Assembly (NCBI GenBank): GCA_038041915.1
Contig: JBBTFH010000184.1
Location: 1-41,604 of the forward strand
Origin: Myxococcota bacterium
Lineage (GTDB): Bacteria > Myxococcota_A > Polyangia > JBBTFH01
Direction: 5' to 3'
DNA length: 41,604 bases
In this document: piece after piece, positions 4,467-35,976 of the stretch
How the letters are laid out: each line of letters opens with the position of its first letter
How positions within the stretch are numbered: position 1 is the stretch's first letter
Notes under the pieces: generated by a model
What the model was told of the DNA's origin: nothing
Seen by the model: only the letters and a program-made list of their open reading frames with translations
Databases searched by the model: none
Position numbers and translations under genes: made by a program

Positions 4467-4516
4467 GGGGCACCCATGGTAACGCCGGGGAGGGACGTTT
4501 GCTAGAGTCCGCCGCG

Positions 4517-11592: not shown

Positions 11593-12888
11593 CTACTTGT
11601 CGTCCTCGAGGCTGATCTCGCCCGACAGGTCGACCGCCTCGGCTTGCAGGCGCGCGCCCGAGAGATCGGCGGTGGTCTTGCGCAGCCGCCCGGCGAGGAC
11701 CTGCACGAAGCTCCAGAGCAGCTTCACCGAGAGCGGCGTCTCCGCCTGCACGAGCTCGTAGAACTCCTTGCGCGGGATAGTGAGCAGCCGCGTCGCGTCG
11801 ACCGCCGTGACGGTCGCGGAGCGCGGAGCGCGGTCGACGAGCGCCATCTCGCCGAAGTGATCGCCGCCGGTGAGGTGCGTGAGGAACGCGCCATCCTTGT
11901 GCAGGGCGACCTTGCCCTCGAGCACGATGTAGAGTTCCTCGCCGTCGCTGCCCTCGCTGAGGATCGCCTCGTCCGGCTTGGCCTCGCGCACGGAGGCGAT
12001 GTTGAGCACCTTCACCAGCTCCTTGTAGCTGAGGTACTGGAAGATCGGCATGCCGCGCAGGCGCTCGAGGCGGAGGTTGAGTTCGCGGAAGCGCGCGTCG
12101 ACTTCGAGAGCCTCCTCGCCGCCGATGCGGACGTGCAGCGTGGTGACGTTGTCCTTGCCGCCGCGCGAGTTCGCCAGCTCGACCAGCAACTCGGGGCCCT
12201 TGCCGTCGGGGGCGGTCGCCAGGATGTCCTTGATCTCCGGCTCGCCCACGTGCAGGCCGAGGCCGTCACTGCAGAGCACGAACTGGTCGCCGCCCAGCAC
12301 GTCGAAGTCGATGGTGTCGACCTCGACGGTCTCGTAGACGCCGACGGCGCGGGTGAGCGCGCTCTTGTAGTTCGCGTAGGGCGAGGAGTCGATCTCCTCG
12401 CGCTTGAGCTTGCCGCGCCGCACCAGCTCGTTGACCAGGGAGTGATCCTCGGTGAGCTGGTGGATTTGCCCGCGGCGCAGGAGGTAGATGCGCGAGTCGC
12501 CCACGTGCGCGATGAAGCCGCGGTCGCCGCGCGCGCCGGCGATGAGCAGCATCATCGAGCAGGTCGTGCCCATGCCTCGCTTGGCCAGATCGGCCTGCGC
12601 CTCGGCGTGGATCGCGTGGCAGGCGCCCTTGACCGCTTCCTCGAGCAGCTTGAGCACGGTCCCGCGCTCGCCCTCGCCGCGGGCGTACGCCGCGATGATC
12701 TCGCGCTTCCGTTCCACGGCGCCTTGCACCTTCGCCACGGCCAGGGCGCTCGCGACCTCGCCGGCGGCGTGCCCGCCCATGCCGTCGCAGACACCGAAGA
12801 GGTGGATCTCGGGTGCGAAGAGAAAGCTGTCCTCGTTGTGATCGCGCGCGCGGCCGACGTCGGATTTGGCCCAGGCTAGGATCTCCAT
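11593..12888 (-). CDS. PP2C/PPM Ser/Thr phosphatase fused to a C-terminal cyclic-nucleotide-binding domain
   Basis: GRARDHNED, CDGMGGH, HVGDSRIY, LCSDGL, GGKDNVT; cNMP cassette GDHFGEMALVDRAPRSATV. Confidence 0.92.
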   Translation of the reverse strand: MEILAWAKSDVGRARDHNEDSFLFAPEIHLFGVCDGMGGHAAGEVASALAVAKVQGAVERKREIIAAYARGEGERGTVLKLLEEAVKGACHAIHAEAQADLAKRGMGTTCSMMLLIAGARGDRGFIAHVGDSRIYLLRRGQIHQLTEDHSLVNELVRRGKLKREEIDSSPYANYKSALTRAVGVYETVEVDTIDFDVLGGDQFVLCSDGLGLHVGEPEIKDILATAPDGKGPELLVELANSRGGKDNVTTLHVRIGGEEALEVDARFRELNLRLERLRGMPIFQYLSYKELVKVLNIASVREAKPDEAILSEGSDGEELYIVLEGKVALHKDGAFLTHLTGGDHFGEMALVDRAPRSATVTAVDATRLLTIPRKEFYELVQAETPLSVKLLWSFVQVLAGRLRKTTADLSGARLQAEAVDLSGEISLEDDK

Positions 12889-12937
12889 GGCGGAGAAGTG
12901 TCCGTCGAGACGGCGTCCGACGCAAGGAGGGGAGGGG

Positions 12938-13831
12938 TCAGCCGGCGCGAAGGAGCCGCACGATCGCCGCGATCGCCGCTATGAGCGCGGTCACGCCGAC
13001 GGCGGCGAGCGCGAGATCGGGCCAGGCGTGGCGGCGTGTACCCGCGGGCGGCGCGGCGGGCAGCGGGCGCTCGGAGGTCGTATCTCCCGCGCGCGCTCGG
13101 TCGGGCACGCCTTCGAGGTCGCGCAGGAAGGCCTCGGCCGGATCGCGGAAGCGCAGGCGCGTCGCGCCGAGCACGAGCTCGTCGCCGTCGTGCAGGCGTC
13201 GTTCTTCCTCGACGCGCCGGGCGCCGATGAGGACGCCGTTCTTGGAGCCGAGATCGGCGATCAGCACGCACGAAAGGTCGCGCCGCACCCGCGCGTGCTC
13301 GCGGCTGACGTCGGGATCGTCGACGGCGAGATCGCACGTGGCGCCGCGTCCGATCGTGTAGCCGCGCGTGCCTCGGTCGAGGCCGAGCGTGAGCCGGCGT
13401 CCGGCGTCCGGGCCGGCCGCGACCTCGAGGCTCGGTGCGGAAGCGTCGGGCCCTATGGTCGCGAGCGCTTGCTCGACCATGCGCCGCGCCAGCGACTCGG
13501 TCGTCTCGGTTCGGGTTACGGCTCCGTCCGCGCCGAGCCGCGCGACGATCAGGAAGTCGGCGATGGTGATGGCGTCGCCGTCGGCGAGCGGATGGCGCTC
13601 TCCATCCGCCAGCCGGCGACCGCCCAGCCAAGTTCCGTTGGTCGAGCCGTCGTCTTCGATGTGCCAAACCTCGCCGTCGCGCACCAGGCGCGCGTGGTCG
13701 AGTGACACGGCGGCGTCGGGGAGGCGCAGGTCGGCGCCCGCGCGGCGGCCGATCCGCACGACATCGCCGCTCGTGCGCAGGTCGTACGCGGGCGTGCCGG
13801 CGCCGGGGCCGCGAAGCGTCAGGCGGAGCAT
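12938..13831 (-). CDS. Tandem FHA-domain protein with C-terminal TM helix (alternative GTG start at 13849 overlapping the comEC stop)
   Basis: Two FHA signatures: IGR...VSLDHA...GSTNGT and IGR...VSREHA...GSKNGV; C-terminal hydrophobic helix. Confidence 0.88.
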   Translation of the reverse strand: MLRLTLRGPGAGTPAYDLRTSGDVVRIGRRAGADLRLPDAAVSLDHARLVRDGEVWHIEDDGSTNGTWLGGRRLADGERHPLADGDAITIADFLIVARLGADGAVTRTETTESLARRMVEQALATIGPDASAPSLEVAAGPDAGRRLTLGLDRGTRGYTIGRGATCDLAVDDPDVSREHARVRRDLSCVLIADLGSKNGVLIGARRVEEERRLHDGDELVLGATRLRFRDPAEAFLRDLEGVPDRARAGDTTSERPLPAAPPAGTRRHAWPDLALAAVGVTALIAAIAAIVRLLRAG

Positions 13832-13842
13832 CGGCGTGGTTT

Positions 13843-16125
13843 TTACCACCGGGCCACGCCGCCTTGCGCAACCGTCTCGACCGAGGCCGCGTTGCGACCC
13901 AGGCGCACGATCACCGCGCCGTGCTGGTCGGTTCGCAAGAGCGGCACGCCGCCACGCGCGTAGCGATCGATCACCTCGGCGTGCGGGAAGCCGAAGCGGT
14001 TGTCCGCGCCGAGCGAGGCGACGGCCAGACGCGGGCGGACGGCCACGAGCAACTCGTCGGTCGAGGATGTCCGGCTGCCGTGGTGCGGCACCTTGAGCAC
14101 GTCGGCGCGCGGGCGCTCGGCGGCGAGCAGGATCTCGCCCTCGGCCTCGAGATCGCCCGTGAGAAGGACGCTGCGCGCGCCCACGCTCACGCGCAGCACC
14201 AGCGAGTTGTCGTTGGTCGAGAGGGCCGGCGCCCACGACGGGCTGGGGTGGAGCGGCTCGACCAGCGCGTCGCCGATAGCCCAGCGGCGCGGCGGGCGCG
14301 GCTGCACGCCCTGCGCCTCGAGGGCGCCGAGCAGCGCGCGGTAGCCGGGGTGATCCGACGGCTCGCCCGAGGTCCACAGCTCACCCACCGGAAATCGTCG
14401 GGCGGCGGCGATGAGTCCGCCAAAGTGATCCGGGTGCGGGTGGGAGAGCGCCATGACGTCGATACGCGCCACGCGGCGCGCGCGCAGCAGCGGCAAGAGC
14501 GCCGCCTCGCCGACCTCGGGTCCGCCATCGAACGAGCCGCCGCCGTCAACCAGCAGCGTGCGCCCGCGCGGCAGCTCGACCAGGATCGCGTCGCCTTGGC
14601 CGACGTCGACGAAGGTCACGGTGGCGCCGCTGCGCCACGCGCGCGCGGCCGCGCCGGCGCCGACGACGAGCGCCAGCGCCGCGGCTGCGATGGCCGCGAG
14701 CCTGAGGCGCCCGCGCAGCAGCAGGGCGGCGGCGATCCACGCGAGCACGGCCTCGATCGCCGTCGGCCGGCCGACCGCGATCACCGCCGCCGGCGCGTCG
14801 GAAAAGAGGCGCGCGGCCTGAACGAGCACGTCCGACGCCGCTCCGGCGACCGCCAGCAGCGGCGCCGCGGCGCCCGGCCAGAAGGGCAGGAGCAACGTGC
14901 CGGCGAGCGACGCGGGCAAGAGGACGGCGGTCGTCCAGGGCACGCAGACGAGGTTTGCCACGCCGCCGGTGACGGGGAGCACGCCGAAGTGGATCGCGAC
15001 GAGCGGCGCGGTGGCGAGCGAGGCGGCGCCGGTCATGAGGGCCATCCGCGCGAGCCCGCGCGCCGGTCCTTTTCCCGAGATGCGCGGCGCGAGCATCAAC
15101 CCGACGCAGGCGGCGAACGAGAGCTGCAGCGACGGGTCGAAGAGCGCGACGGGATCGAGCGCGAGGATGGCGAGGGCGGCCAGCGCCAGCGCGCTCGCGC
15201 CGTCCGGCGGGCGTGCCGCGATGACGGCGCCCAGCAGCGCCGCGGCCACGATTGTCGAGCGCACGACCGGGTGGTCCGCGCCCGCCAGCAGGGAATAGGC
15301 GGCGCCCGCCGGGATCGTCGCCGTCGCCGCCAGCGCGCGGACGGAGACCGACAGCGCGAGCCGGGGCACGCGCGCGAGCAGGCGCCGCAGCGCGACGTAG
15401 GTCAGCAGGGCGAGCGCCGCCAGGTGCAGGCCGCTCACGCTGAGCAGGTGCGTGATGCCTGCGCGCCGGAACGCCTCTTCTACTGGTGGCGTGACCAGGC
15501 CGCGCTCGCCGAGGACCATCGCGCCGACGAGCGCGCGCCGGTCGCCGCTCAGGCTCTCGTCGAGATGCCTTCCGAGGCTCGCGCGCCACGCGGCCACGCG
15601 CGCCAGCAGGCTCGGCTCGCCCCGAGCGACCAGCCGCACGCCGCGTGGCGGCATCACCGCGCCGACCGCCTCGACGCCGCGTCCCCGCAGCGCCCGCTCG
15701 ACGTCGAACGCGCCTGGGTTCTTGTAGCCGCGCGGGCGGTGGAGCCGAGCCTCCGTGCTGACGACGTCGCCGGGCAGCAGAGCGCGACCTCCGCCTTCGA
15801 CACGCAGGCGCACGAGCGCGCGCACCGGCTGCCACGCGCGCACGCGCAGCGTCATCCTTCTGGCCTCGGGCACCGGCAGGCCCTCGACGCGCCCGACGAT
15901 CGTCGTGCGCTCCGCCGGAAGCGCGGGCGCCTCGCCCGACAGCGCCAGCGCCAAGCGCAGCGCGCCGGCGGCGAAGGCCAGCGCCGTCGAGACGACGAGT
16001 GGCCGCAGCCGCCTCGCGGTGGCGAGCGCCGGCAGCGCGGCGAGCGCCGCGACCGCGCCGAAACGATCGCCAGCCGCGACTCCCGTGGCGAACGCGACCG
16101 CGAGGATGGGGAGCGCGCGCATCAT
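13843..16125 (-). CDS. comEC: DNA internalization competence protein ComEC/Rec2
   Basis: DUF4131-like NPGAFD; GITHLLSVSGLH; SLQLSF; MBL domain DVGQGDA, SHPHPDHFGG, NDNSLVL, LLTGDLE, KVPHHGS, NRFGFPH. Confidence 0.95.
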   Translation of the reverse strand: MMRALPILAVAFATGVAAGDRFGAVAALAALPALATARRLRPLVVSTALAFAAGALRLALALSGEAPALPAERTTIVGRVEGLPVPEARRMTLRVRAWQPVRALVRLRVEGGGRALLPGDVVSTEARLHRPRGYKNPGAFDVERALRGRGVEAVGAVMPPRGVRLVARGEPSLLARVAAWRASLGRHLDESLSGDRRALVGAMVLGERGLVTPPVEEAFRRAGITHLLSVSGLHLAALALLTYVALRRLLARVPRLALSVSVRALAATATIPAGAAYSLLAGADHPVVRSTIVAAALLGAVIAARPPDGASALALAALAILALDPVALFDPSLQLSFAACVGLMLAPRISGKGPARGLARMALMTGAASLATAPLVAIHFGVLPVTGGVANLVCVPWTTAVLLPASLAGTLLLPFWPGAAAPLLAVAGAASDVLVQAARLFSDAPAAVIAVGRPTAIEAVLAWIAAALLLRGRLRLAAIAAAALALVVGAGAAARAWRSGATVTFVDVGQGDAILVELPRGRTLLVDGGGSFDGGPEVGEAALLPLLRARRVARIDVMALSHPHPDHFGGLIAAARRFPVGELWTSGEPSDHPGYRALLGALEAQGVQPRPPRRWAIGDALVEPLHPSPSWAPALSTNDNSLVLRVSVGARSVLLTGDLEAEGEILLAAERPRADVLKVPHHGSRTSSTDELLVAVRPRLAVASLGADNRFGFPHAEVIDRYARGGVPLLRTDQHGAVIVRLGRNAASVETVAQGGVARW

Positions 16126-17476: not shown

Positions 17477-18154
17477 GTGCGTCGCCCCCTGATCCTCGTC
17501 GGAAGCGCGCTGCTGGCCGTGGTCTCCGAGGCTGCCGTCGTGCAGGGCACGGTCGCCATTCCCGAGGGATTCGAGGCCGAGATCGACACGACGCCGTCGA
17601 TGTGGCTGATCGAGAACGGGCTCGTGCCGATAGCGCCGCCGCTCGAGGATCCGCGCACGCGCATGGTCGTGGTGCTCGAGGGCGGCGAGGCCGCGGCGGC
17701 CGCGGGCCCGAGCGCCACCGTCACGCTGCGCGACATGCGCCTCGACCCGCGCGTGTTGCCGGTGACGGTCGGCACCGCGGTCGACTTCAAGAACGAGGAC
17801 CGCTCCGTGCACGCGCTCTACTCGCCGGGCGATTCGCGCTTCGCGGCGCAGCCCCAGGCGCCCGGCGGCCTGCGGACGCACCGCTTCGATAGAGCCGGTG
17901 CCTACGAGATTCGCTGCAAGGAGGTGCCGCACGTGCGCGGCGTCGTCCTCGTGCTCGCCGGCGGCCTCTTCGCGCTGCCGCAGTCGGGCGGCGGGTTCCG
18001 CCTCGAGAACGTCCCGGCGGGCACGTACACGCTGCGCGTATGGTACGCGGGCGACTTCATCCACACGCAGGCGGTCGAAGTCGGCGCGGGCGACGCGCCG
18101 AGCGCGCAGATCGACGTCACGCTCGCGGCGCGCAAGGCCGCGAAGACCCCGTGA
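17477..18154 (+). CDS. Exported cupredoxin-like plus carboxypeptidase-regulatory-like domain protein
   Basis: Signal peptide; LDPRVLPVTVGTAVDFKNED..H...FDRAGAYEIRC; C-terminal FRLENVPAGTYTLRVW. Confidence 0.7.
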   Translation: MRRPLILVGSALLAVVSEAAVVQGTVAIPEGFEAEIDTTPSMWLIENGLVPIAPPLEDPRTRMVVVLEGGEAAAAAGPSATVTLRDMRLDPRVLPVTVGTAVDFKNEDRSVHALYSPGDSRFAAQPQAPGGLRTHRFDRAGAYEIRCKEVPHVRGVVLVLAGGLFALPQSGGGFRLENVPAGTYTLRVWYAGDFIHTQAVEVGAGDAPSAQIDVTLAARKAAKTP

Positions 18155-18164
18155 GGCCCATCTC

Positions 18165-19835
18165 GTGTGGCTGAGCAAGATCTGGTTCGCGGTGACGGCC
18201 TTCGTGGCGGCCGCCGCCGTCGCGTTCGGCCTGGTAGTCGCGAGCGTGGCGAGCGGCGAGGCGGATCGCGAGCAGGCCGAGCGCCTCGATCGTGCGCAGG
18301 ACGGCGCGCACCTGCTGCTCAAGGTCAACATTCGGAGCTGGATCGACGAGGTCGCGCGCCTGTCGACCGACGCCGCGCTCACCGACGGCGCGGAAAACTT
18401 CGGGCATGCCGCGGCCGCCGACGCGCCATTCATCCACGACTCCGTGCAGGCCCGCCTGCGGGCGCTGGGTGAGAAGCTCGGCGCCGAGCTGCTGATCGCC
18501 GTCGACGCCGGCGGCAAGGTGGTGGCGCGTGTAGGCGAGGACGAGGGGAGCTACGGCGACGGCCTGATCGGCTACCCTCTGGTCGAGGCGGTGCTGCGGG
18601 GCTACCGCCGCGACGATTCGTGGGGCGTGGGCGGCCAACTTTACCGCATGGCCGGCTCGCCGATCCCGAGCCGCACGCGCGAACGGGTCGTGGGCGGGCT
18701 CATAGTCGGGGACCGCGTGGACGACGCGTTTACCAAGTCGCTCGAGGCGCGGCTTGGCAGCGACATCGCGTTCTTTCTCGGCGGCAAGGTCGTCGCGCAG
18801 TCGCTCGGCTCGCCCGCCATCTTCAGCCTGCCCGCCCGCATCGAGGAGAACCGCGACACGCTGCGCAAGCAGGGACGCACGCCGGCGCTCGAGCTCGAGG
18901 CTGGCGTTGGCCGCTACCTCGCGGTGGTCGCGCCCGTCGTCGGCGAGGCCGCGGAGCTCGACGCCTGCTACGCGCTGATCGTCGAGCGCCGCACCGCCGG
19001 CGGCTTCGCGGCGCTGCTCGGGCGTATCGGGCGCGACGACGTCGCGTGGGGATCGTTTCCGTGGCTGCCGGTGGCGGGGGGGCTGGTGCTCGCGCTCGTC
19101 ATCGGTATCGCGGCGATGGTCTTCGAGGTCGACGTCCCGTTGCGGCGCCTGCTCGACGAGAGCCGCGACGTGGCCAAGGGCATCTCGGGCAAGGTCAACG
19201 ACGCAGCGCTGCGCGGGCGCTTCGGCAGCATCGGCCGCGCGATCAACGAGACGATCGAGCGGCTGAGCAGGGCCAAGCCGGGGCAGCGCGACATCGGCGC
19301 GATCCTCGGCTCGTCGGCGGGCGGCGAGCTGACGGCGACCGGCCGGCGCGGCGCGACGCTGTCCAACGTCCTGCCGGCGCTCGGATCGACGGATCGCGTC
19401 CCCACGCCGCCGATAGGCTACCCGTCGCCGCTCCTGTCCCAGCAGCCCTCGGGCGTCGTCCGATCGCTGTCGTCGCCGCTGTCGTCGCCGCTGTCGTCGT
19501 CGCTGTCGTCGTCGCGGTCGTCGTCGCCGGTGGCGCCGATGGGCGCGGAGCTCTCGGGCGCCGTGGCCGCCGTGGAGGATTCGTCGCTGCTCGAAGAGGA
19601 AGCGGCAGCCGAGGAGGACGCGCTCGAGGCGGCCCTGCTGCAGATCTACCGCGAGTTCATCGACACCAAGAAGCGCTGCGGCGAGGCGGACGTGGTCGCC
19701 TACGACCGCTTCGCCGAGAAGCTGCGCGAGAACAGGCGACAGCTGATGGAACGATTCGGCTGCAAAGACGTGAAGTTCATCGTCTACGTCAAGGAAGGCA
19801 AGGCCGCCGTGAAGGCCTCGCCGGTCAAGGCGTAG
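18165..19835 (+). CDS. MXAN_5187-family membrane protein (TM, Cache-like periplasmic domain, TM/HAMP-like, conserved C-terminal domain)
   Basis: GTG start VWLSKIWF; two TM helices; C-terminus IYREFIDTKKRCGE...FAEKLRENRRQLMERFGCKDVKFIVYVKEGKAAVKA matches the MXAN_5187 C-terminal pattern as I recall it. Confidence 0.75.
   Translation: MWLSKIWFAVTAFVAAAAVAFGLVVASVASGEADREQAERLDRAQDGAHLLLKVNIRSWIDEVARLSTDAALTDGAENFGHAAAADAPFIHDSVQARLRALGEKLGAELLIAVDAGGKVVARVGEDEGSYGDGLIGYPLVEAVLRGYRRDDSWGVGGQLYRMAGSPIPSRTRERVVGGLIVGDRVDDAFTKSLEARLGSDIAFFLGGKVVAQSLGSPAIFSLPARIEENRDTLRKQGRTPALELEAGVGRYLAVVAPVVGEAAELDACYALIVERRTAGGFAALLGRIGRDDVAWGSFPWLPVAGGLVLALVIGIAAMVFEVDVPLRRLLDESRDVAKGISGKVNDAALRGRFGSIGRAINETIERLSRAKPGQRDIGAILGSSAGGELTATGRRGATLSNVLPALGSTDRVPTPPIGYPSPLLSQQPSGVVRSLSSPLSSPLSSSLSSSRSSSPVAPMGAELSGAVAAVEDSSLLEEEAAAEEDALEAALLQIYREFIDTKKRCGEADVVAYDRFAEKLRENRRQLMERFGCKDVKFIVYVKEGKAAVKASPVKA
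19465..19529 (+). repeat. Imperfect 12-bp coding tandem repeat (CGCTGTCGTCG[C/T]) encoding LSSP/LSSS
   Basis: About 5 units: LSSP LSSP LSSS LSSS RSSSP. Confidence 0.7.
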
Positions 19836-19892
19836 CAAAGCGCTTCGATCGCGGACCGCGCGCGGATCGTGATCGACTCGAAAGGAGAGCAC

Positions 19893-20138
19893 GTGGACGA
19901 AAACACCAGCAGCGAAACGCCGGAGCAGGACACCCTCGTCGTGGCCTCGAAGGTGAAGAAGTACATTCGCGAAAAATCGGGCATGAACACGTCCGCGTCG
20001 CTGCTCGACGCGCTGTCCGAGCAGGTCCGAACGCTCTGCGAGCAGGCGGCCCTGCGCGCGAAAGCCGACGGCCGCAAGACGGTGATGGACCGGGATCTCG
20101 TGAGGCCGCCGGACGCGCCCGCCGCGCCCACGCCGTAG
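19893..20138 (+). CDS. Bacterial histone-fold protein (Bdellovibrio Bd0055/HBb-like singlet)
   Basis: SD AAAGGAG then GTG; LVVASKVKKYIREKSGMNTSASLLDALSEQVRTLCEQAALRAKADGRKTVMDRDL, with the histone RKTxxxxD motif. Confidence 0.88.
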   Translation: MDENTSSETPEQDTLVVASKVKKYIREKSGMNTSASLLDALSEQVRTLCEQAALRAKADGRKTVMDRDLVRPPDAPAAPTP

Positions 20139-20147
20139 ACCTCGCTC

Positions 20148-22451
20148 CTACTGCCCGCCCGGCTTCATCTGCTCGAGCAGGAACGTCTCCGCGTCGATCT
20201 CTCCGGCGCTGGGGGCGACCTCGACCGGCTCGGTGCCGGAGACGAAGATCTCGTCGATCGCTTCGGCCATCTCGGGCGGTGCGCGCAGGCCGGTGGCGGG
20301 ATCGATCCGCACCGACACGATGCCGGCGGGCTGGCGGAAGGCGCGCGCGGGGCGACCGGCGTGCGCGCCGAGCATGAAGTCGGTCCAGATCGGCACGGCG
20401 GCGCGGCCTCCGGCCTCACCCTTGCCGAGTGGCCGCGGCTCGTCGAACCCGATCCACACGGCGGCGCAGAGGTCGGGCGTGAAGCCGACGAACCAGGCGT
20501 CCTTGTGATCGTCGGACGTGCCGGTCTTGCCGGCGGCGGGGCGCGCGACGCGGCGCGCGGCACGGCCGGTGCCGTCTTCGATCACGCTGCGCAGTAGATC
20601 GACCATCACGTATGCGGCCTGAGCCGAAATTGCGGAGCGCTTTGCTGACGCGGGCTCAAGACGGCCGTCGATCTCGACGACGAACGACGGCTCGGTGCGG
20701 CGACCGCCGGCGGCGAACGTCCCGAAGGCGGACGCGAGCTCGAGCGGCGTCACGGCGGAGGCGCCCAGCGCCAGGCTCAAGTTGCGGTCGAGCGGCGAGG
20801 CGATGCCGAGGCGCCGCGCCGTCGCGATCGTCGCCTCGACGCCGACTTCGCCCAGCAGCTTCACGGCGATGGTGTTCACGCTGTCGGCGAGCGCGACGCG
20901 CAGGCGGAGCGGCCCGCGAAACGAGGTCGCGTCGTAGTTTCGCGGCTTCCAGCTTGCAAAGACCTCGGGCGAATCGACCAGCACGGTCGCCGCGGTGAAC
21001 CGGCCGGACTCGATCGCCGCGGCGTACGTGATCGGCTTGAAGGCCGAGCCGGGCTGCCGTCGCGCCTGTCGTGCGCGGTCGAAGCCGCCCGCGTGAAATC
21101 CGTAGCCGCCGACGAGCGCGCGCACCTGGCCGGTCGAAGGCTCGATCGCGACCAGCGCCCCTTGAGGGCCCATGTCGAGCGCGACCGCGTCCTTGCCGCG
21201 CTCGGGGGCCGCGCGCACGCGGAGCACGTCGCCCGAGCGCAGCGGCGGGTTCTCGCCGCTCTTCCCGGCGGCGAAGCGAGGCTCGGCCGTGAGATCGAGC
21301 GTCGCCTGCCGCGTGCCGAGATCGAGGCGTGCGGTGCGGCTCTTCGTGTCGACTTCGATGACGAGCGCCTCGACGGTCGGGCCGCGGCTTTGCCGCAGCC
21401 GCTCGAGCTGCTTGGCGATCGCCTTGCCCTCAAGGTGCCGCAGCGGCTTGCGATAGCCTTGCCGCTCGTCGAGGGCGCGCAGGCCCTGCTCGAGCGCGGC
21501 CCGTGCTTGGCTTTGCATAGCCGCGTCGATGCTCGTGCGCACGCGCGCGCCGAGATACGGCACGCGGTCGGCGCCGTAGCGCTCGGCGAGCAGAGCCTGC
21601 ACCCAGTCGACGATCTCGGGCGCCTGCACCGGGCTCGCCGTCAGCGAAGGCGTCCTGGCCAAAGGCAGGGCCGCTTCGCGCGCGGCGCGCGCGGAGGCCG
21701 CGTCGACGGCGCCGAGCTTCTCCATCTGCTCGAGGACGTAGACTTGCCGCCGCTTGGCGCGATCGGGGTGCCGAAGCGGCGTCAGCGCCTCGGGCGCCTG
21801 CGGCAGCCCGGCGAGCAGCGCCGCCTCGGCGAGCGACAGCTTCTCGATCGAGTGCCCGAAGTAGAAACGCGCCGCCTCCTCGAAGCCGTAGCGGCCGTGG
21901 CCGAGGTAGATCTGGTTCAGGTAGAGGTGGAGGATCTCGTCCTTGGCGAGCGCGCGCTCGAGGCGGCGCGCGAGGATGACCTCCTGCATCTTGCGGCGTA
22001 GCGTACGTTCGGGCGAGAGGAAAAAGGTCTTCACGACCTGCTGCGTGATCGTGCTGCCGCCCTGCGCGAAGCGGCCGGCGCGCAGGTTGGCGAAGAAGGC
22101 GCGCAGCATGCCGGCGTAGTCGAGGCCGCGGTGTTGGTAGAACTGCGCATCCTCGGCGGCGACGACGGCCTGCACGAGCAGCCGCGGGATGCGCTCCATC
22201 GCCACCACCGTGCGCCGCTCGCGGAAGATCTCGCCGAGCAGCGCGCCGTCGGCAAAGTAGATCTTGGTGGCGCGCGGCGGATCGTAGTCGCCCAGCCGCT
22301 GGATGCGCGGCAGGTCGGGATCGTAGGCGACGACGAGGAACGCGACGCCAAGCGCGCCCGCGGCGGCGAAGACGAGGCCGAGCAGCGCGGCGGCGAAGAC
22401 GAGGAGAGCGCGGGCGCGCCTCTTCTGCTTACGCTGCTTGTCGCGAGCCAC
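20148..22451 (-). CDS. mrcA: Class A penicillin-binding protein 1A
   Basis: GT51 motifs AAEDAQFYQHRG, GGSTITQQVVK, RKMQE; transpeptidase motifs QPGSAFK, SVN, KTGT. Confidence 0.93.
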   Translation of the reverse strand: MARDKQRKQKRRARALLVFAAALLGLVFAAAGALGVAFLVVAYDPDLPRIQRLGDYDPPRATKIYFADGALLGEIFRERRTVVAMERIPRLLVQAVVAAEDAQFYQHRGLDYAGMLRAFFANLRAGRFAQGGSTITQQVVKTFFLSPERTLRRKMQEVILARRLERALAKDEILHLYLNQIYLGHGRYGFEEAARFYFGHSIEKLSLAEAALLAGLPQAPEALTPLRHPDRAKRRQVYVLEQMEKLGAVDAASARAAREAALPLARTPSLTASPVQAPEIVDWVQALLAERYGADRVPYLGARVRTSIDAAMQSQARAALEQGLRALDERQGYRKPLRHLEGKAIAKQLERLRQSRGPTVEALVIEVDTKSRTARLDLGTRQATLDLTAEPRFAAGKSGENPPLRSGDVLRVRAAPERGKDAVALDMGPQGALVAIEPSTGQVRALVGGYGFHAGGFDRARQARRQPGSAFKPITYAAAIESGRFTAATVLVDSPEVFASWKPRNYDATSFRGPLRLRVALADSVNTIAVKLLGEVGVEATIATARRLGIASPLDRNLSLALGASAVTPLELASAFGTFAAGGRRTEPSFVVEIDGRLEPASAKRSAISAQAAYVMVDLLRSVIEDGTGRAARRVARPAAGKTGTSDDHKDAWFVGFTPDLCAAVWIGFDEPRPLGKGEAGGRAAVPIWTDFMLGAHAGRPARAFRQPAGIVSVRIDPATGLRAPPEMAEAIDEIFVSGTEPVEVAPSAGEIDAETFLLEQMKPGGQ

Positions 22452-24533: not shown

Positions 24534-26786
24534 CTACGGCGTGCCCAGGCGTGGGTCGTCGGCGCCGAAGTCGTCTTCGTCCCGCGGCGGTTCGGCATCG
24601 GCGGGCGGCGGCGCGTCGACGAACGGCAGATCGAGATCGTCGAGCGGCTCGTCGGGCGACGCTTCGACCATCTTCTTGACCAGCGCGAGGCACTCCTTCT
24701 CCGGCTTGGCCTCCGCCCGATCGAATACGAGCGTCTGCGCGAGCGCCTCCTCGTACTCGGCGTCTTCGAGTCGCGCTCGCTCGTGCATGCGCTTGAGGAT
24801 GCGCGGCAGGTATTTTTCCCACTTCGGCGAGAGCCTACCGCGGCAGTAGTGCTCGTAGCGGCGCTTGGGGCTCGGCAGGATGCTCGAGAAGAACGCACTC
24901 TCGAGCGGCGTCAGGTCGCGCGCGTGCTTGCCGAAGTAGTGACGCGCAGCACGCCCGATGCCGAAGATGCCCGGTCCGAACTCTATGGCGTTGAGATAAA
25001 TCTCGAGCGTCCGCTCTTTGGGCAGGTTCTGCTCGACGTACCAGGTCAGCACCAGTTCCTGCAGCTTGCGCGCAAGCGTCTTTTCGCGCGTCAGAAGCAC
25101 GTTCTTGACCATCTGCATGGTGATCGACGACGCGCCGAAGGCGAAGCGGCCTTGCAAGAGGTTGCGTGCGAGCGCTGATCGAAACTCGCGCGGGATGAAG
25201 CCCCTGTGCTCGAAGAAGCGCGAGTCCTCGGTCGTGAGCAGCGACGCGACCAGATAGGGCGAGACGTCGGCGAGCGGCACGAAGTCGGCGTTCTCGGGCC
25301 CGATCACGAAGGTCGCCTCGTGGCCGGGCGTGACCTCCATCGTGTGCTCGAAGCTGCCGAGGAGTCGCCGCACGTCGGCTTCGGGCGGCGCCTCGAGCAC
25401 GCGGCAGCCGCCCAAGGCGATCTTTCCGTCGAGCGCCACGGCGCCGAGCGCGACCTCGCGCTGCTGCCGCCAGCGGCCGCTGGCAGTGAGCTTGGCGAGC
25501 GTGTCGAAGTCGATGCGCGTGCGCACGTCGGCTTCGAAAAAGCCGGCGAGGCGGAAGCCAGCGAGCTTGGGCACGAGCGCTGGCGGCAACGCGTCAAGGA
25601 CGCTCTGGCAGGCGACCGGCGGGACGCGCATGCGCGCGGTGAGCAGCGGATGCGCGCCGAGGCGCTCGGCGCTGCCCTCGAGCACCGCCGTGACGCCCGC
25701 GTAGGTCACCACCGCCTCGTCGAGCGCGAGCTTCTGCGCGCGCGGATCGAAGCGCCCGCGCACCGAGGCCTCGATGGCCAGGCCGGGCACCGCGACCGGG
25801 CCGATGCGCGGCCCGAACAGCGTCAGGCCGGAGGCCGCGACAGAGCCTTCGAAGGAGATGTCGTCGCCGTGCTGGCGCAGCACGAGGTCGCCGCCGAGCT
25901 CCGCGCGATCGAGATCCTTGAGCGGAAGCTTCGCGAGCGCGTCGGCGACGCGCGCGAGGCTGAAGCGTTCGCCGTGCACGTGGAGCTCGGCCTCCGCTTG
26001 CCCCAAGCCGTGAGGCTGCGTGCCCTCCGATGGGCGAATCCAGCCCGACGCGTCCCACAGGCGCCCGCCCGCGCTGCCGTAGCTACCCGCGAGCGTGACG
26101 CCGAAGCCGCCGTCCTCGCGCGGCGCGATCCACCCGTCGATGCCGGTGAGCTCGACGCCGGGGAGCGCACGCACGCGCCCGTGGTGCAGCCAGACGCGCG
26201 TGCGTTGCGGCTGGCCGGCTTGGCCGCGCGGCGCGATCGTCACCTCGAGCCGCTCGGCCGCGGCCTCGGGTCCGGCGCGCAGCCGCGCGGTCGCCTCCGT
26301 CAGCGTCGCGCGCAGCGGCTCGCGCGGGCGCCAGGTCGCTTTGAGTCGCGCCCGGCCGTCGAGGCCGAGCGCGGGGTCCGCGTACTCGACCGTGACGTCG
26401 CTCAGTGTGACGGATCGAATCGTCACGCGGCCGGCCCTGCCGCCGCCGGACGTGGTTGGGCGCCGATCGTCAGGCCCGAGGCGCACCGACGCGCCGCGCG
26501 CGCTCACGTCGGCGTGGACGCGCAGCGCGAGCAGCGGCAGGAGGTCGTAGGCAAGAGCGACCTCGCGGATGAAGGCGCGGTCGCCGACGCGGACGTCGCG
26601 AAACGTCAATCGCCCGAGGCGCGATTCGATCTTCTCGGCGCTGACCGGCGCGCCGAGGCGCGCCGACGCGAGGCGCAGCGCCCGCCCGCCGGCGTAGGCG
26701 CCCCCGAGGCGCAGCAGAAGAAAGCCCGCGAGCGCGAGCGCGCCCGCACAGGCGAGCGCGCGACGCAGGAGGGGACTACGAAGCAA
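24534..26786 (-). CDS. Monofunctional biosynthetic peptidoglycan transglycosylase (GT51) with large N-terminal beta-rich region; start approximate
   Basis: TM helix; TTEDSRFFEHRG, GASSITMQMVKN, RKLQE, LEIYLNAIEFG; no transpeptidase domain. Confidence 0.85.
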   Translation of the reverse strand: MLRSPLLRRALACAGALALAGFLLLRLGGAYAGGRALRLASARLGAPVSAEKIESRLGRLTFRDVRVGDRAFIREVALAYDLLPLLALRVHADVSARGASVRLGPDDRRPTTSGGGRAGRVTIRSVTLSDVTVEYADPALGLDGRARLKATWRPREPLRATLTEATARLRAGPEAAAERLEVTIAPRGQAGQPQRTRVWLHHGRVRALPGVELTGIDGWIAPREDGGFGVTLAGSYGSAGGRLWDASGWIRPSEGTQPHGLGQAEAELHVHGERFSLARVADALAKLPLKDLDRAELGGDLVLRQHGDDISFEGSVAASGLTLFGPRIGPVAVPGLAIEASVRGRFDPRAQKLALDEAVVTYAGVTAVLEGSAERLGAHPLLTARMRVPPVACQSVLDALPPALVPKLAGFRLAGFFEADVRTRIDFDTLAKLTASGRWRQQREVALGAVALDGKIALGGCRVLEAPPEADVRRLLGSFEHTMEVTPGHEATFVIGPENADFVPLADVSPYLVASLLTTEDSRFFEHRGFIPREFRSALARNLLQGRFAFGASSITMQMVKNVLLTREKTLARKLQELVLTWYVEQNLPKERTLEIYLNAIEFGPGIFGIGRAARHYFGKHARDLTPLESAFFSSILPSPKRRYEHYCRGRLSPKWEKYLPRILKRMHERARLEDAEYEEALAQTLVFDRAEAKPEKECLALVKKMVEASPDEPLDDLDLPFVDAPPPADAEPPRDEDDFGADDPRLGTP

Positions 26787-26797
26787 CGCGGGGAAGG

Positions 26798-27250
26798 CTA
26801 TTTCTTCTTCGACGCGCAGTCGACCGCGAGGACGAGCGTTCCGCCGGCGTGCGCTCCGACGACCAGCGGGATCGGATCGCCCTCGCCGACCCTGTAGGTC
26901 GTCGCCACGCCGCCGTAATCCAGCTTGACGCGCAGGAGCGGCTTCTTGTCGCCCTTCACGCGCTCGAGGAACGTCACCACCAGCTTCTTTCCGCTGGGCA
27001 CCTCGACAGCGCTCTCCCGGCCGATCTCCGCGTCGACGGCGTCCTCCTTGATCAGCTTGAACGACTTGAAGCGGTCGAAGGGCGGCTTGCCGAGGAGCGG
27101 CCTCAGCTTGGCGATCTTCTTGTCGACGCCGCCGTCGGCGTCGAGCGCGTGGATCGACCGGACGCGGCAGCGCGCGGGCGGTTCGGCCCAAGCGGGCGCG
27201 GCGAGCGCGGGGGCAAGCAGCAGAAGCAGGTTCGCCGTTGCAAGCCTCAT
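26798..27250 (-). CDS. Small exported protein in the ECF operon
   Basis: SD GAGGAGG; signal peptide MRLATANLLLLLAPALAAPAWA; two Cys near the ends of the mature protein. Confidence 0.75.
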   Translation of the reverse strand: MRLATANLLLLLAPALAAPAWAEPPARCRVRSIHALDADGGVDKKIAKLRPLLGKPPFDRFKSFKLIKEDAVDAEIGRESAVEVPSGKKLVVTFLERVKGDKKPLLRVKLDYGGVATTYRVGEGDPIPLVVGAHAGGTLVLAVDCASKKK

Positions 27251-33935: not shown

Positions 33936-34823
33936 TCAGCGAGCGGTATCTGGGCCGCCCGCCAAAAACTCCTCGACGTCGCGGTTGAAGCGGTCGGGCT
34001 CGTCGATCATCGGGCAGTGCCCGGCGTCGGCGTACACGATCAGCCGCGAGCCGGGAATGCGCCGCCGCAGCGGCTTGGCGGCGGTGACCGGGAGCAGCAG
34101 ATCCTTGCCTCCCCAGACGATCAGCGTCGGCGCGGCGATCTCGCCGGCGCGCTCGACCATGTGACAGCGCACGACCCCGTGCATCGCGCGCAGCGCGGCG
34201 CGCAGGTAGAGCGGGTAGTCGGGGCTCTCCATGCCGGCGAGGTAGAAGCGGGTGAAGCGCGCGGCCTTGTCGGGGCGCGTTGGAAAGACCAGCTTGAAGA
34301 GCAGCGCCACCGTCGGCGCCGGAACCCGCGGAAGGCCCTTCCAGCCGCCGCCGCGGCCCCGCCGCGCGAGCGCGAGCGCGTGCAGGAGCAGCGAGATCGC
34401 GCGGCGCGGATACGCCGACACTCCGGCGGGCGAGACCAGCACGAGGCTTGAGACCGCGCGCGGGTGCGCGAGCGCGAACGCCATCGCTACTTGCCCGCCG
34501 AGCGAGTTGCCGACGAGTGTCGCGCGCGCGATGTGCTTGGCGTGGAGGAAGCGCGCGAGCACGCCCACGAAGTAGTGAACCGAGTAGTCGACGTCCGGCT
34601 TGTCGGAGCGGCCGAACCCGGGGAGATCGAGTGCGATCGCTCGGTGTCGCTGCGCGAAGTGCGCCGTCTGCGGCCACCAGAAGTCGAGCGTGGCGGTGAG
34701 GCCGTGGATGAAGACGATCGGCGCGCCGGCCCCTTCGTCGACGTGCACGAGGCGGACACCGTCGACGTCGACCGCGTGAAGGGCCCGCGCCCGCCTGGCG
34801 GGTTCGGGCGCGGCCGGCGTCAG
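33936..34823 (-). CDS. Alpha/beta fold hydrolase; start uncertain (CTG 34823 or GTG 34748)
   Basis: IVFIHGL, DLPGFGRSDKP, nucleophile elbow GNSLGG, WGGKD, AGHCP. Confidence 0.88.
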   Translation of the reverse strand: MTPAAPEPARRARALHAVDVDGVRLVHVDEGAGAPIVFIHGLTATLDFWWPQTAHFAQRHRAIALDLPGFGRSDKPDVDYSVHYFVGVLARFLHAKHIARATLVGNSLGGQVAMAFALAHPRAVSSLVLVSPAGVSAYPRRAISLLLHALALARRGRGGGWKGLPRVPAPTVALLFKLVFPTRPDKAARFTRFYLAGMESPDYPLYLRAALRAMHGVVRCHMVERAGEIAAPTLIVWGGKDLLLPVTAAKPLRRRIPGSRLIVYADAGHCPMIDEPDRFNRDVEEFLAGGPDTAR

Positions 34824-35926: not shown

Positions 35927-35976
35927 GAGCCGAATATACCAGCCGGGGGGGGGCGAGCGGCGAAGGACGCGCTGAA

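What the first reader, a model, noticed from the sequence alone, without database searches (positions are those of the whole stretch)
19893..20138. Bacterial histone of the Bd0055/HBb type with short N- and C-terminal tails
The core (LVVASKVKKYIREKSGMNTS...AKADGRKTVMDRD) closely resembles the Bdellovibrio histone Bd0055 as I recall it and has the histone RKTxxxxD loop. It adds an acidic N-tail (DENTSSETPEQD, Ser/Thr-rich) and a Pro/Ala C-tail. A strong SD suggests high expression in a region where many genes look leaderless. Bacterial histones are recently described and little studied in this lineage. The Ser/Thr tail could be a modification site, given the FHA/PP2C signalling present; that part is speculative.
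Basis: partly seen in the sequence, partly recalled or inferred. Interest (0 to 1): 0.75.

Follow-up and report, generated by a model that had tools for sequence, protein, structure and literature searches.

The report
Bdellovibrio-type bacterial histone with floppy tails
This small gene really does encode a bacterial histone of the already described Bdellovibrio HBb type, here in an uncultured groundwater bacterium, so it is a good new example of a known kind and not a new kind of thing.

Summary
Window 19893-20138 (+) is an intact 81-codon gene with a GTG start and AGGAG 5 nt upstream. Residues 13-70 match the solved Bdellovibrio histone HBb/Bd0055 without gaps (phmmer E 5e-15, 58% identity). 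An AlphaFold model superposes on HBb at 0.5-0.7 A. The RD clamp and 9 of 10 HBb DNA-contact residues are kept. A homodimer model scores 0.56 against 0.00 for controls, though this may reflect memory of solved HBb dimers.

The protein belongs to the published 'bacterial dimer' class of alpha3-truncated histones. It is not the face-to-face, ZZ or archaeal nucleosomal type.

The tails are real and predicted disordered. The acidic N-tail is a recurrent subfamily trait: 37 of 122 relatives have 8 or more residues, and 35 of those are net negative. The Pro/Ala C-tail is rare and goes with high G+C.

New here: the gene lies in a 312-bp insert between two convergent genes. Those genes abut, 0-14 nt apart, in four related genomes. 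The host's class relatives mostly carry ZZ-type histones elsewhere.

Expression, abundance and tail phosphorylation remain untested. Verdict: new member of a known kind, of modest interest.

The parts
19836..20147 (.). 312-bp segment between the stop codons of two convergent genes. It consists of a 57-nt leader, the histone ORF and a 9-nt gap. It is absent from the same junction in four related genomes.
   Evidence: In L198, L213, L211 and L191 the two stop codons are 0, 13, 4 and 14 nt apart.
19883..19887 (+). Shine-Dalgarno-like AGGAG, 5 nt before the GTG start.
   Evidence: sequence read directly; the only candidate start with such a motif.
19893..20138 (+). Histone gene, 81 codons plus TAG stop (P0001).
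19893..19934 (+). N-terminal tail, residues 1-14 (MDENTSSETPEQDT). It has 5 acidic and no basic residues and is predicted disordered.
   Evidence: charge. (no helix before residue 18; mean pLDDT 51 for residues 1-10). (recurrent acidic tails in relatives).
19944..19979 (+). Helix alpha1, residues 18-29. S19, K20 and K22 correspond to the HBb DNA contacts S9, K10 and K12.
19980..19994 (+). Loop L1, residues 30-34 (GMNTS). T33 and S34 correspond to HBb T23 and S24.
   Evidence: (L1 of one chain pairs with L2 of the other).
19995..20066 (+). Helix alpha2, residues 35-58, the dimerisation helix. L41, V45 and L48 correspond to HBb L31, I35 and L38.
20067..20096 (+). Loop L2 and the one-turn alpha3, residues 59-68 (DGRKTVMDRD). 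It holds the RD clamp R61-D68 plus D59, and the DNA contacts K62, T63 and R67.
   Evidence: (R61, K62, T63, V64 and D68 invariant in 63 sequences).
20097..20135 (+). C-terminal tail, residues 69-81 (LVRPPDAPAAPTP). After L69-V70 it is Pro/Ala-rich, net neutral and of low model confidence.
   Evidence: (tails of 10 or more residues in 6 of 27 high-G+C against 2 of 93 lower-G+C relatives).
17898..19835 (+). Upstream gene for an MXAN_5187-family protein. Its true start is uncertain. Its C-terminal domain ends at the stop, 57 nt before the histone start.
   Evidence: MXAN_5187_C_dom 77.2 bits, cut-off 30. (found in 57 of 61 class genomes).
20148..22451 (-). Convergent downstream gene, a PBP1A-family penicillin-binding protein. 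Its stop lies 9 nt after the histone stop.
   Evidence: PBP_1a_fam 581.7 bits, cut-off 508.75.

Best explanation
The gene encodes a small nucleoid-associated histone of the HBb/Bd0055 'bacterial dimer' class.

Two chains should pair head-to-tail through their antiparallel alpha2 helices (inferred from the model and from HBb). Each end of the dimer then presents an L1-L2 surface (T33, S34, A35 of one chain; K62, T63, R67 of the other). The first turn of alpha1 (S19, K20, K22) adds a further surface. [quoted passage not shown] The result would be local bending and compaction of DNA, as shown experimentally for HBb (inferred by homology).

The protein lacks what face-to-face or archaeal histones use to form tetramers. 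It should therefore act as a dimer, or as dimers packed side by side, alongside the three HU/IHF-family proteins of the same genome.

The two tails are disordered. The acidic N-tail (net -5) sits directly before the alpha1 DNA contacts. It most likely weakens or tunes DNA binding or dimer-dimer packing (inference). The Pro/Ala C-tail is most likely a weakly constrained extension of the kind that high-G+C genes acquire (inference).

The gene appears to have been inserted into the gap between two convergent housekeeping genes in this lineage.
For: Sequence. phmmer to HBb chains 8cmp_A and 8fvx_A gives E 5e-15 over residues 13-70, ungapped. HLp scores 1.3e-8 and HTkC 2.6e-6, both weaker.

Fold. 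The AF2 model from 63 sequences has pLDDT 78.3, with helices at 18-29, 35-58 and 66-68. Foldseek's top five hits are HBb entries 9ezz, 9f0e, 8fvx and 8cmp: E 9e-6 to 4e-5, target TM 0.91-0.96, rmsd 0.5-0.7 A, 58-60% identity.

Residues. Window number = HBb number + 10. The published HBb DNA contacts K12, T23, S24, A25, K52, T53, R57 and S9, K10 are all identical here, and only T8 becomes A18. The RD clamp R51-D58 with D49 becomes R61-D68 with D59. The dimer-core residues V11, L31, I35, L38, I59 become V21, L41, V45, L48, L69 (paper sections read).

Dimer. ipSAE is 0.56 against a best control of 0.00. The mark was reached by 20 of 30 proteins solved as pairs of one chain and by 1 of 23 solved as single chains. 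The runs share at least 87% of contacts and partner pLDDT is at least 69. The best contacts are L1 (32-34) with L2 (63-65). HBb dimers are solved, so this pass may be from memory.

Genome. There is one histone copy and three PF00216 HU/IHF matches over cut-off.

Real gene. G+C by codon position is 0.65/0.48/0.88.

Tails. In my set of 122 distinct relatives with an SD-supported start, 37 have 8 or more residues before the core and 35 of these are net negative. C-tails of 10 or more residues occur in 6 of 27 loci with G+C of at least 0.62, against 2 of 93 below that.

Insertion. 0 of 29 relatives' MXAN_5187 loci hold a histone. In 4 loci the two flanking genes abut with 0-14 nt between their stops.
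Against: There is no experimental or expression evidence for this copy. No RNA run was listed, so abundance is unknown.

Curated family models do not call it: Pfam CBFD_NFYB_HMF 17.9 bits against a cut-off of 21.4, NCBIfam histone 18.8 against 50.

The whole protein is slightly acidic (pI 5.35, 12 K+R against 13 D+E). Only the core is basic (pI 9.65). DNA affinity could therefore be lower than that of HBb.

The DNA-binding mode of HBb itself is disputed: straight-DNA coating in Hocher 2023, bending in Hu 2024.

The direction of the insertion/loss event is not rooted. The genome is only 83% complete, so a second histone could be unassembled. The dimer pass may reflect memory of solved HBb dimers.
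Confidence: 0.82

Rival explanations
1. It is a histone-fold DNA binder, but a minor or specialised one and not a major chromatin protein. It would be low in abundance or condition-specific, like the weakly expressed second histone of B. bacteriovorus.
For: The genome keeps three HU/IHF-family genes. The gene looks like a late addition at the 3' end of an unrelated operon, with only 57 nt of leader and no sigma-70-like promoter match. Net charge is about neutral. Schwab 2024 warns that not all prokaryotic histones need be global organisers.
Against: It is of the HBb type and not the ZZ type. HBb is abundant and essential in its host. The start has a good AGGAG. The promoter scan expects about 0 matches in sequence this G+C-rich, so its blank says little.
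Confidence: 0.2
2. It works by coating straight DNA as a dense filament of dimers (the Hocher 2023 crystal mode), not by bending DNA as isolated dimers.
For: The L1-L2 contact residues used in that filament are conserved. In that filament the N-termini are exchanged between dimers, and acidic faces pack on basic ridges. An acidic N-tail could in principle take part in such packing.
Against: Hu 2024 reports bending in solution and in simulations for HBb. This protein adds 14 acidic and 13 proline-rich residues per chain, which should hinder packing at 1 dimer per 2.5 bp (inference only).
Confidence: 0.12
3. The Ser/Thr-rich N-tail is a regulatory modification site. It would be phosphorylated by the host's Hanks kinases and read by FHA proteins, giving a switchable bacterial histone tail.
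For: The tail has T5, S6, S7, T9 and T14, and is disordered. The genome holds 33 Pkinase and 23 FHA matches, and the window itself holds a two-FHA gene and a PP2C gene. T9-P10-E11 is kept in P0056.
Against: Nothing links these kinases to this protein, and such kinases are plentiful across this genome. In P0056 the N-tail keeps T9 and one more Ser/Thr position (T5 or S7, by-eye alignment); the rest are Ala/Gly. Across relatives the tails keep their charge but not their sequence. More negative charge on a tail that is already -5 would change little.
Confidence: 0.07
4. It is a recently acquired passenger gene with no role in the host.
For: It sits in a 312-bp insert absent from related genomes. 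Its G+C of 0.675 is somewhat below the window's 0.717.
Against: The frame is intact and all family-invariant residues are kept. Third-position G+C is host-like at 0.88, which argues against a very recent arrival. No mobile-element genes or flanking repeats were found.
Confidence: 0.05

Closest known systems
HBb / Bd0055 of Bdellovibrio bacteriovorus ('bacterial dimer' alpha3-truncated histone; PDB 8CMP, 8FVX, 9EZZ, 9F0E)
   Same: The match is ungapped at 58% identity over the whole fold. The model superposes at 0.5-0.7 A. It shares the same short alpha2, the one-turn alpha3, the RD clamp with the extra Asp, 9 of 10 DNA-contact residues and a dimer model with L1-L2 pairing.
   Different: This protein has 10 extra, acidic residues at the N-terminus, where HBb has MAEV. 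Its C-terminus is LVRPPDAPAAPTP where HBb-like proteins have IVIDHL, so the hydrophobic end of alpha3 is replaced by a proline-rich tail. T8 becomes Ala. The whole protein is near neutral in net charge. The host is a high-G+C, probably myxobacterial, groundwater MAG and not a predator of the Bdellovibrionota.
Acidic-tailed subgroup of bacterial dimer histones (uncultured Bdellovibrionia/Oligoflexia, Scalindua and other MAGs; e.g. L021, L025, L107, P0262)
   Same: These give the highest core identity, up to 75% for L107. They share the LVVASK...YIREKSGMNTSA core and N-tails of 8-22 residues rich in Glu, Ser, Thr and Asn.
   Different: Those proteins stop 1-3 residues after the RD clamp, whereas this one continues for 13. 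Tail sequences are not alignable beyond composition. I found this subgroup's tails described in none of the main texts I read or searched; the supplements were not seen.
ZZ histones (zinc-finger plus bacterial-dimer-like fold; Schwab 2024)
   Same: The histone domain is closely related. These are the best matches in the host's own class, at up to 59% identity.
   Different: This protein has no Cys-rich N-terminal domain: the frame is closed 33 codons before the core and the tail has no Cys. None of the ZZ forms lies at this locus.
Face-to-face histones (HLp of Leptospira perolatii, PDB 9QT0; HTkC, 9F2C)
   Same: They share the alpha3-truncated histone fold (E 7.6e-4 and 1.1e-3, target TM 0.91-0.92).
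   Different: The sequence match is weaker (1.3e-8 and 2.6e-6). The Asn that helps tetramerisation in that class is Asp59 here. Tails of that class are mostly basic, whereas this one is acidic.
Coiled-coil histones with strongly negative tails (Schwab 2024)
   Same: They have disordered acidic tails, proposed there to occlude the alpha1 DNA-binding face. This is the same mechanism I propose for the N-tail here.
   Different: They are a different histone class with a different architecture. The comparison is an analogy only.

Membership tests
Bacterial dimer (HBb/Bd0055-type) alpha3-truncated histones | Histone fold: alpha1-L1-alpha2-L2-alpha3 | tested here: met
   The AF2 model has helices at 18-29, 35-58 and 66-68. 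Foldseek's top hits are HBb entries, with target TM 0.91-0.96.
Bacterial dimer (HBb/Bd0055-type) alpha3-truncated histones | alpha2 about one turn shorter than in HMfB, and alpha3 only 3-4 residues | tested here: met
   The alignment to HBb is ungapped across residues 13-70. The model's alpha3 is 3 residues, 66-68.
Bacterial dimer (HBb/Bd0055-type) alpha3-truncated histones | RKTxxxD motif / RD clamp | tested here: met
   R61-K62-T63-V64...D68 is present, with D59 as in HBb D49. R61, K62, T63, V64 and D68 are invariant in 63 sequences.
Bacterial dimer (HBb/Bd0055-type) alpha3-truncated histones | Conserved alpha1 Ser-Lys motif and lysines that contact DNA | tested here: met
   S19, K20, K22 and K23 correspond to HBb S9, K10, K12 and K13.
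Bacterial dimer (HBb/Bd0055-type) alpha3-truncated histones | Clusters by sequence with HBb rather than with other histone classes (the class is defined by sequence clustering) | tested here: met
   The E-value to HBb is 5e-15, against 1.3e-8 to HLp and 0.03-0.4 to archaeal histones. My own tree is unresolved, and no CLANS map was made.
Bacterial dimer (HBb/Bd0055-type) alpha3-truncated histones | Homodimer, with no confident higher oligomer | tested here: inconclusive
   The dimer model passes: 0.56 against a best control of 0.00; mark reached by 20 of 30 proteins solved as pairs of one chain and 1 of 23 solved as single chains; runs share at least 87% of contacts; partner pLDDT at least 69. 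It may be from memory of solved HBb dimers. A tetramer was not modelled.
Bacterial dimer (HBb/Bd0055-type) alpha3-truncated histones | Non-specific DNA binding and bending; high abundance | not testable with these tools
   No RNA run was listed. There is no biochemistry.
Face-to-face (FtF) histones | Conserved Arg and Asn (R48, N52 of the FtF logo) at the end of alpha2 that make the dimer-dimer contact | tested here: not met
   By alignment to HLp the Asn position is D59. The Arg position is R55, but Arg there is also common among bacterial dimers. Mapping the logo numbers onto this protein is my inference.
ZZ histones | N-terminal ZZ-type zinc-finger domain | tested here: not met
   The frame is closed 33 codons upstream of the core and there is no Cys in residues 1-48. 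Class relatives do carry the Cys-rich domain.
Archaeal/eukaryotic nucleosomal histones (Pfam CBFD_NFYB_HMF) | Score over the curated threshold; 10-residue alpha3 and the tetramer His | tested here: not met
   The score is 17.9 bits against a cut-off of 21.4. alpha3 is 3 residues. The position of HBb A48, mutated to His by Hocher to gain wrapping, is A58 here.

The most novel reading that the evidence does not exclude
The acidic, Ser/Thr-bearing N-tail lies immediately before the alpha1 DNA contacts. It could be an intramolecular DNA mimic that holds the histone in a low-affinity state, with its strength set by phosphorylation from the host's many Hanks kinases. That would be a bacterial histone with a regulatory tail of opposite charge to eukaryotic ones. 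On this reading the whole acidic-tailed subgroup of HBb-type histones would be a tunable variant class.
Probability: 0.07. Interest if true: 0.7.

Novelty: new member of a known kind. Interest (0 to 1): 0.3.

Why it matters
Bacterial histones occur in under 2% of genomes, and only two (HBb and HLp) have been studied at the bench. This copy adds a confident HBb-type member from an uncultured, high-G+C, probably myxobacterial groundwater lineage whose relatives mostly carry the ZZ-type form.

Three points are useful to the field.

(1) Curated Pfam and NCBIfam thresholds miss it, so such genes are under-annotated.

(2) Short acidic N-tails are a recurrent trait of one HBb subgroup. I did not find this described, and it is directly testable with tail-deletion proteins.

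(3) The gene sits in a clean 312-bp insert between conserved convergent genes. This is concrete evidence that these small histone genes move or are lost as single-gene units, which fits their patchy distribution.

Tried and rejected
- **Expression.** The look-up of sequencing runs listed 11 holders in 5 studies, several labelled groundwater metagenome. No RNA holder was listed.
- **Population variation.** Contigs of 4 runs were laid on 19400-20600. Only identical pieces covered the histone gene (X1 in full; X4 over 19855-19997). No variants were available to judge selection on the tails.
- **Leader RNA.** The hairpin at 19845-19876 is no more stable than shuffles (z -0.04). Rfam gave only symR at 21.7 bits against a gathering score of 61.
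- **Promoter and terminator scan.** There were 0 sigma-70-like sites, with 0 expected. Two terminator-like sites lie on the minus strand inside the ORF, with 0.6 expected. Neither result is informative.
- **Flanking repeats.** Only short matches of chance size were found around the insert.
- **Tree.** 162 cores over 57 columns gave an unresolved tree. The window joins no starred clade, so no donor can be named.
- **Phage vector.** Only 3 viral loci were found, at 51-56% identity, which is more distant than the bacterial relatives.
- **Pfam ZZ model.** It did not detect the Cys-rich domain of the relatives' long forms. I call them ZZ-type from their Cys pattern and from their likeness to the long histone of B. 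bacteriovorus (L054), as described by Schwab 2024.
- **Earlier notes of this scan.** None exist for this place or sequence.
- **One mistyped call.** A paper reading 'find' was rejected because the terms were too short. I read the sections instead.

Full report
**Observation**

Window 19893-20138 (+) is an open frame of 81 codons. It has a GTG start and a TAG stop at 20136-20138. AGGAG lies at 19883-19887, 5 nt before the start. The only other in-frame start, GTG 19869, has no such motif. The nearest relative with the same build, P0056, starts MDET... in register with the 19893 start.

G+C by codon position over the open frame is 0.65/0.48/0.88. This is the pattern of the other coding frames in this 71.7% G+C contig.

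**What it is**

phmmer against all PDB chain sequences gives the Bdellovibrio histone HBb/Bd0055 as best match: 8cmp_A at E 5.2e-15 and 8fvx_A at E 5.6e-15, over residues 13-70 without a gap. Next come the Leptospira face-to-face histone HLp (9qt0, 1.3e-8) and HTkC (9f2c, 2.6e-6). Archaeal nucleosomal histones score only 0.03-0.4.

Curated family models miss it. Pfam CBFD_NFYB_HMF gives 17.9 bits against a cut-off of 21.4, and NCBIfam histone gives 18.8 against 50. Standard annotation would therefore call it hypothetical.

An AlphaFold2 model was built from a 63-sequence alignment (A1). It has mean pLDDT 78.3, with helices at 18-29, 35-58 and 66-68 and low confidence at both ends. Foldseek against the PDB puts HBb entries first: 9ezz, 9f0e, 8fvx and 8cmp, with E 9e-6 to 4e-5, target TM 0.91-0.96, rmsd 0.5-0.7 A and 58-60% identity. 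HLp and HTkC follow, and nucleosomal histones come only at E above 0.03.

**Residue check**

From, window numbering is HBb numbering + 10. I read sections of Hu et al. 2024 (PMC11317129). They name the following HBb residues:
- DNA contacts K12, T23, S24, A25, K52, T53, R57 in one crystal form, and T8, S9, K10 in the other.
- The RD clamp R51-D58, reinforced by D49.
- Dimer-core residues V11, L31, I35, L38, I59.

Here these are K22, T33, S34, A35, K62, T63, R67; A18, S19, K20; R61-D68 with D59; and V21, L41, V45, L48, L69. So 9 of 10 DNA contacts are identical, and the rest is kept or conservatively changed.

I read sections of Hocher et al. 2023 (PMC10627809). They made HBb wrap DNA by the mutations A48H, S45F and I61L. 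The equivalents here are A58, R55 and R71, so the tetramer-forming features are absent. Against HLp, the Asn that Schwab et al. tie to face-to-face tetramers is D59 here. That mapping is my inference.

**Dimer**

A two-copy model scored ipSAE 0.56 (three runs: 0.55-0.57) against 0.00 for the best of three controls. The mark was reached by 20 of 30 proteins solved as pairs of one chain and by 1 of 23 solved as single chains. The runs agree in at least 87% of contacts, and partner pLDDT is at least 69. The most confident contacts are L1 (32-34) of one chain with L2 (63-65) of the other, and alpha2 with alpha2. HBb dimers are solved, so the pass may be from memory. It shows likeness, not binding.

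**Class**

I read passages of Schwab et al. 2024 (PMC11390915). They define 'bacterial dimer' histones within the alpha3-truncated family. The class has the RKTxxxD motif, alpha1 lysines and no confident oligomer above the dimer, and is found among others in Bdellovibrionota and Myxococcota_A. This protein meets each sequence and fold feature I could test (see membership table). It is therefore a new member of a known kind.

**Family size and relatives**

- A word-indexed search gave 1486 proteins with E at or below 0.001 among 1491 candidates. The top of the list is dominated by 131-133-aa doublets, which score twice.
- An exhaustive search of 50%-identity representatives gave 656 clusters at E at or below 0.001 and 176 at or below 1e-10.
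- In genome contigs, 290 of 599 candidate stretches encode a relative. The best 80 kept are mostly Bdellovibrionota MAGs at 51-72% identity.
- In metagenome contigs, 182 of 597 candidate stretches encode a relative.
- Core identity to the window protein never exceeds 75% (L107).
- A tree of 162 cores over 57 columns is unresolved around the window protein.

**Host**

The window is a whole contig of a 3.39-Mb, 318-contig, 83%-complete assembly. No genome of the same family is in the collection, and relatives are 'same class' only.

Several lines point to Myxococcota. The upstream gene is of the MXAN_5187 family, which 57 of 61 class genomes carry. The window's TrpRS is at most 70% identical to anything else, and its named hits are Deltaproteobacteria and Polyangia MAGs. 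Runs that hold the stretch are labelled groundwater metagenome where a label is given. I therefore call it a probably myxobacterial groundwater MAG. This is an inference.

The genome has one histone copy by three searches and three HU/IHF-family genes over the Pfam cut-off.

**Tails**

Residues 1-14 (MDENTSSETPEQDT) carry 5 acidic and no basic residues. Residues 69-81 (LVRPPDAPAAPTP) are net neutral. The core has pI 9.65 and the whole protein pI 5.35.

To see whether such tails are unusual, I extracted histone ORFs from loci L001-L100 and L107-L186 with a core/L2 pattern. I kept distinct proteins with an SD-supported start within 40 codons of the core. Rows without such a start were dropped; these are mostly the long N-extended forms. 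This left 122 proteins, including the window's own and 2 doublets.
- The stretch before the core is 4 residues in 58 of them (the HBb build).
- It is 8 or more in 37, and 35 of those 37 are net negative.
- Typical tails read MSEEAEKSET, MSENETESKSEI, MNESNSEKEI.

The acidic N-tail is therefore a recurrent subgroup trait, and the window's is among the most acidic at -5.

Long C-tails are rare: 8 of 120 singlets have 10 or more residues. They are concentrated in high-G+C loci, 6 of 27 at G+C of 0.62 or more against 2 of 93 below. Kin are not independent, so this is a tendency and not a test. Both tails together occur in 5 of 122. P0056 (78 aa, 65% identical) shares both: MDETAAGATPEKD... and ...DRDLVAPSPPPAP.

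Composition is kept between the two, but sequence is not. Apart from T9-P10-E11, only one of T5, S6 and S7 lines up with a Ser/Thr in P0056.

I found no description of acidic tails on HBb-type histones. This covers the main texts of Hocher 2023, Hu 2024, Schwab 2024 and the HLp paper (PMC12701072, passages), and two literature searches for which I saw listings only. The supplements were not opened. Schwab et al. do propose that the negative tails of a different class (coiled-coil histones) occlude the alpha1 DNA face. I adopt that as the likeliest role here, as inference.

Two earlier notes of this scan (e1-4899563, e1-7606677) describe acidic-tailed HBb-type histones in other genomes. They are unchecked AI notes and agree.

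**Locus history (new here)**

The histone lies between the MXAN_5187-family gene (stop at 19833-19835) and a convergent PBP1A gene (stop at 20148-20150). I searched 61 class genomes with the C-terminal 311 aa of the MXAN_5187-family protein and fetched 29 relatives' loci. tblastn with the window's five local proteins found the histone in 0 of the 29.

In four genomes of one family (L191, L198, L211, L213) the same order is kept: upstream 225-aa gene, MXAN_5187 gene, convergent PBP1A. There the two stop codons are 14, 0, 4 and 13 nt apart. In the window they are 312 nt apart, and that segment is the histone gene with a 57-nt leader.

The histone matches that class relatives do have (25 of 61 genomes including the window's own, best 59% identity) lie on other contigs. 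The best of them carry a Cys-rich N-terminal domain like the long histone of B. bacteriovorus, that is, the ZZ type of Schwab et al. Pfam's ZZ model did not detect it.

The simplest reading is a single-gene insertion in this lineage. A precise loss in the relatives is not excluded because the comparison is unrooted.

The insert has G+C 0.667 against 0.717 for the window, but host-like third positions. It has no flanking repeats beyond chance size and no mobile-element genes nearby. Phage copies are more distant, at 51-56%.

**Mechanism, with status of each step**

- Shown by computation: the fold, the conserved contact residues, and a dimer model compatible with them.
- Inferred by homology to HBb: sequence-independent minor-groove backbone binding through L1-L2 and the first turn of alpha1, with bending and compaction.
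- Inferred only: the acidic N-tail lowers or tunes DNA affinity or dimer packing; the C-tail is a weakly constrained extension; transcription comes by read-through from the upstream operon or from an unrecognised promoter.
- Untested: abundance, essentiality and any modification.

**The modification idea**

The genome has 33 Pkinase and 23 FHA matches. The window itself has a PP2C/cNMP-binding gene at 11593-12888 (-) and two FHA domains at 13166-13759 (-).

**Verdict**

This is a real, well-supported HBb-type bacterial histone and a new member of a known kind. Two modest additions come from this work: the recurrent acidic N-tail subgroup, and a clean insertion site. Interest is 0.3.

Noticed in passing
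window 11593-14377 (-): A PP2C phosphatase fused to a cyclic-nucleotide-binding domain (11593-12888) lies next to an ORF with two FHA domains (matches at 13166-13360 and 13562-13759). This looks like a compact Ser/Thr-phosphate signalling pair.
   Followed up: partly
window 17477-19835 (+): A 225-aa gene with no family hit is followed by the MXAN_5187-family gene. This conserved pair recurs in most of the 29 relatives' loci. The function of both is unknown. The start of the second gene is ambiguous (17898 against about 18150).
   Followed up: partly
window 20148-22451 (-) and 24534-27191 (-): Two class-A PBP/transglycosylase genes lie within 7 kb: PBP1A, and an 885-aa ORF whose Transgly domain sits near its C-terminal end.
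   Followed up: no
window 1825-4989 (-): A long ORF (1054 aa as listed) has cytochrome c7-like multihaem repeats.
   Followed up: no
window 34820-39014 (-): A run of ORFs carries PEGA and Kelch repeats, and 39043-41511 (-) has a CarboxypepD_reg domain. These are probably secreted or envelope proteins.
   Followed up: no
L002, L004, L005, L007-L010, L049, L092 (class relatives and other Myxococcota MAGs): The best histone matches in the host's class are long forms with a conserved Cys-rich N-terminal domain (W-x-x-C-x2-C ... C-S-V-S-T-C-N-R ... F-C-S-V-x-C-W-x-x-H). This pattern is shared with the long histone of B. bacteriovorus (L054). Pfam's ZZ model does not detect it.
   Followed up: partly
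G036:C169:6356-6746: Two adjacent histone-fold matches on one strand lie 41 nt apart. This is either a tandem pair or a doublet histone in a class relative.
   Followed up: no
P0276: A 75-aa HBb-type histone ends in a Cys/Gly/Thr-rich tail (…VCGTGTCETTGESCCG), an unusual C-terminal extension.
   Followed up: no
Alignment A1, window residue C49: A cysteine in the middle of alpha2 (HBb C39) is kept in at least 90% of 63 family members. In the dimer model it packs against alpha1 of the partner. I did not see its role discussed in the passages I read.
   Followed up: no
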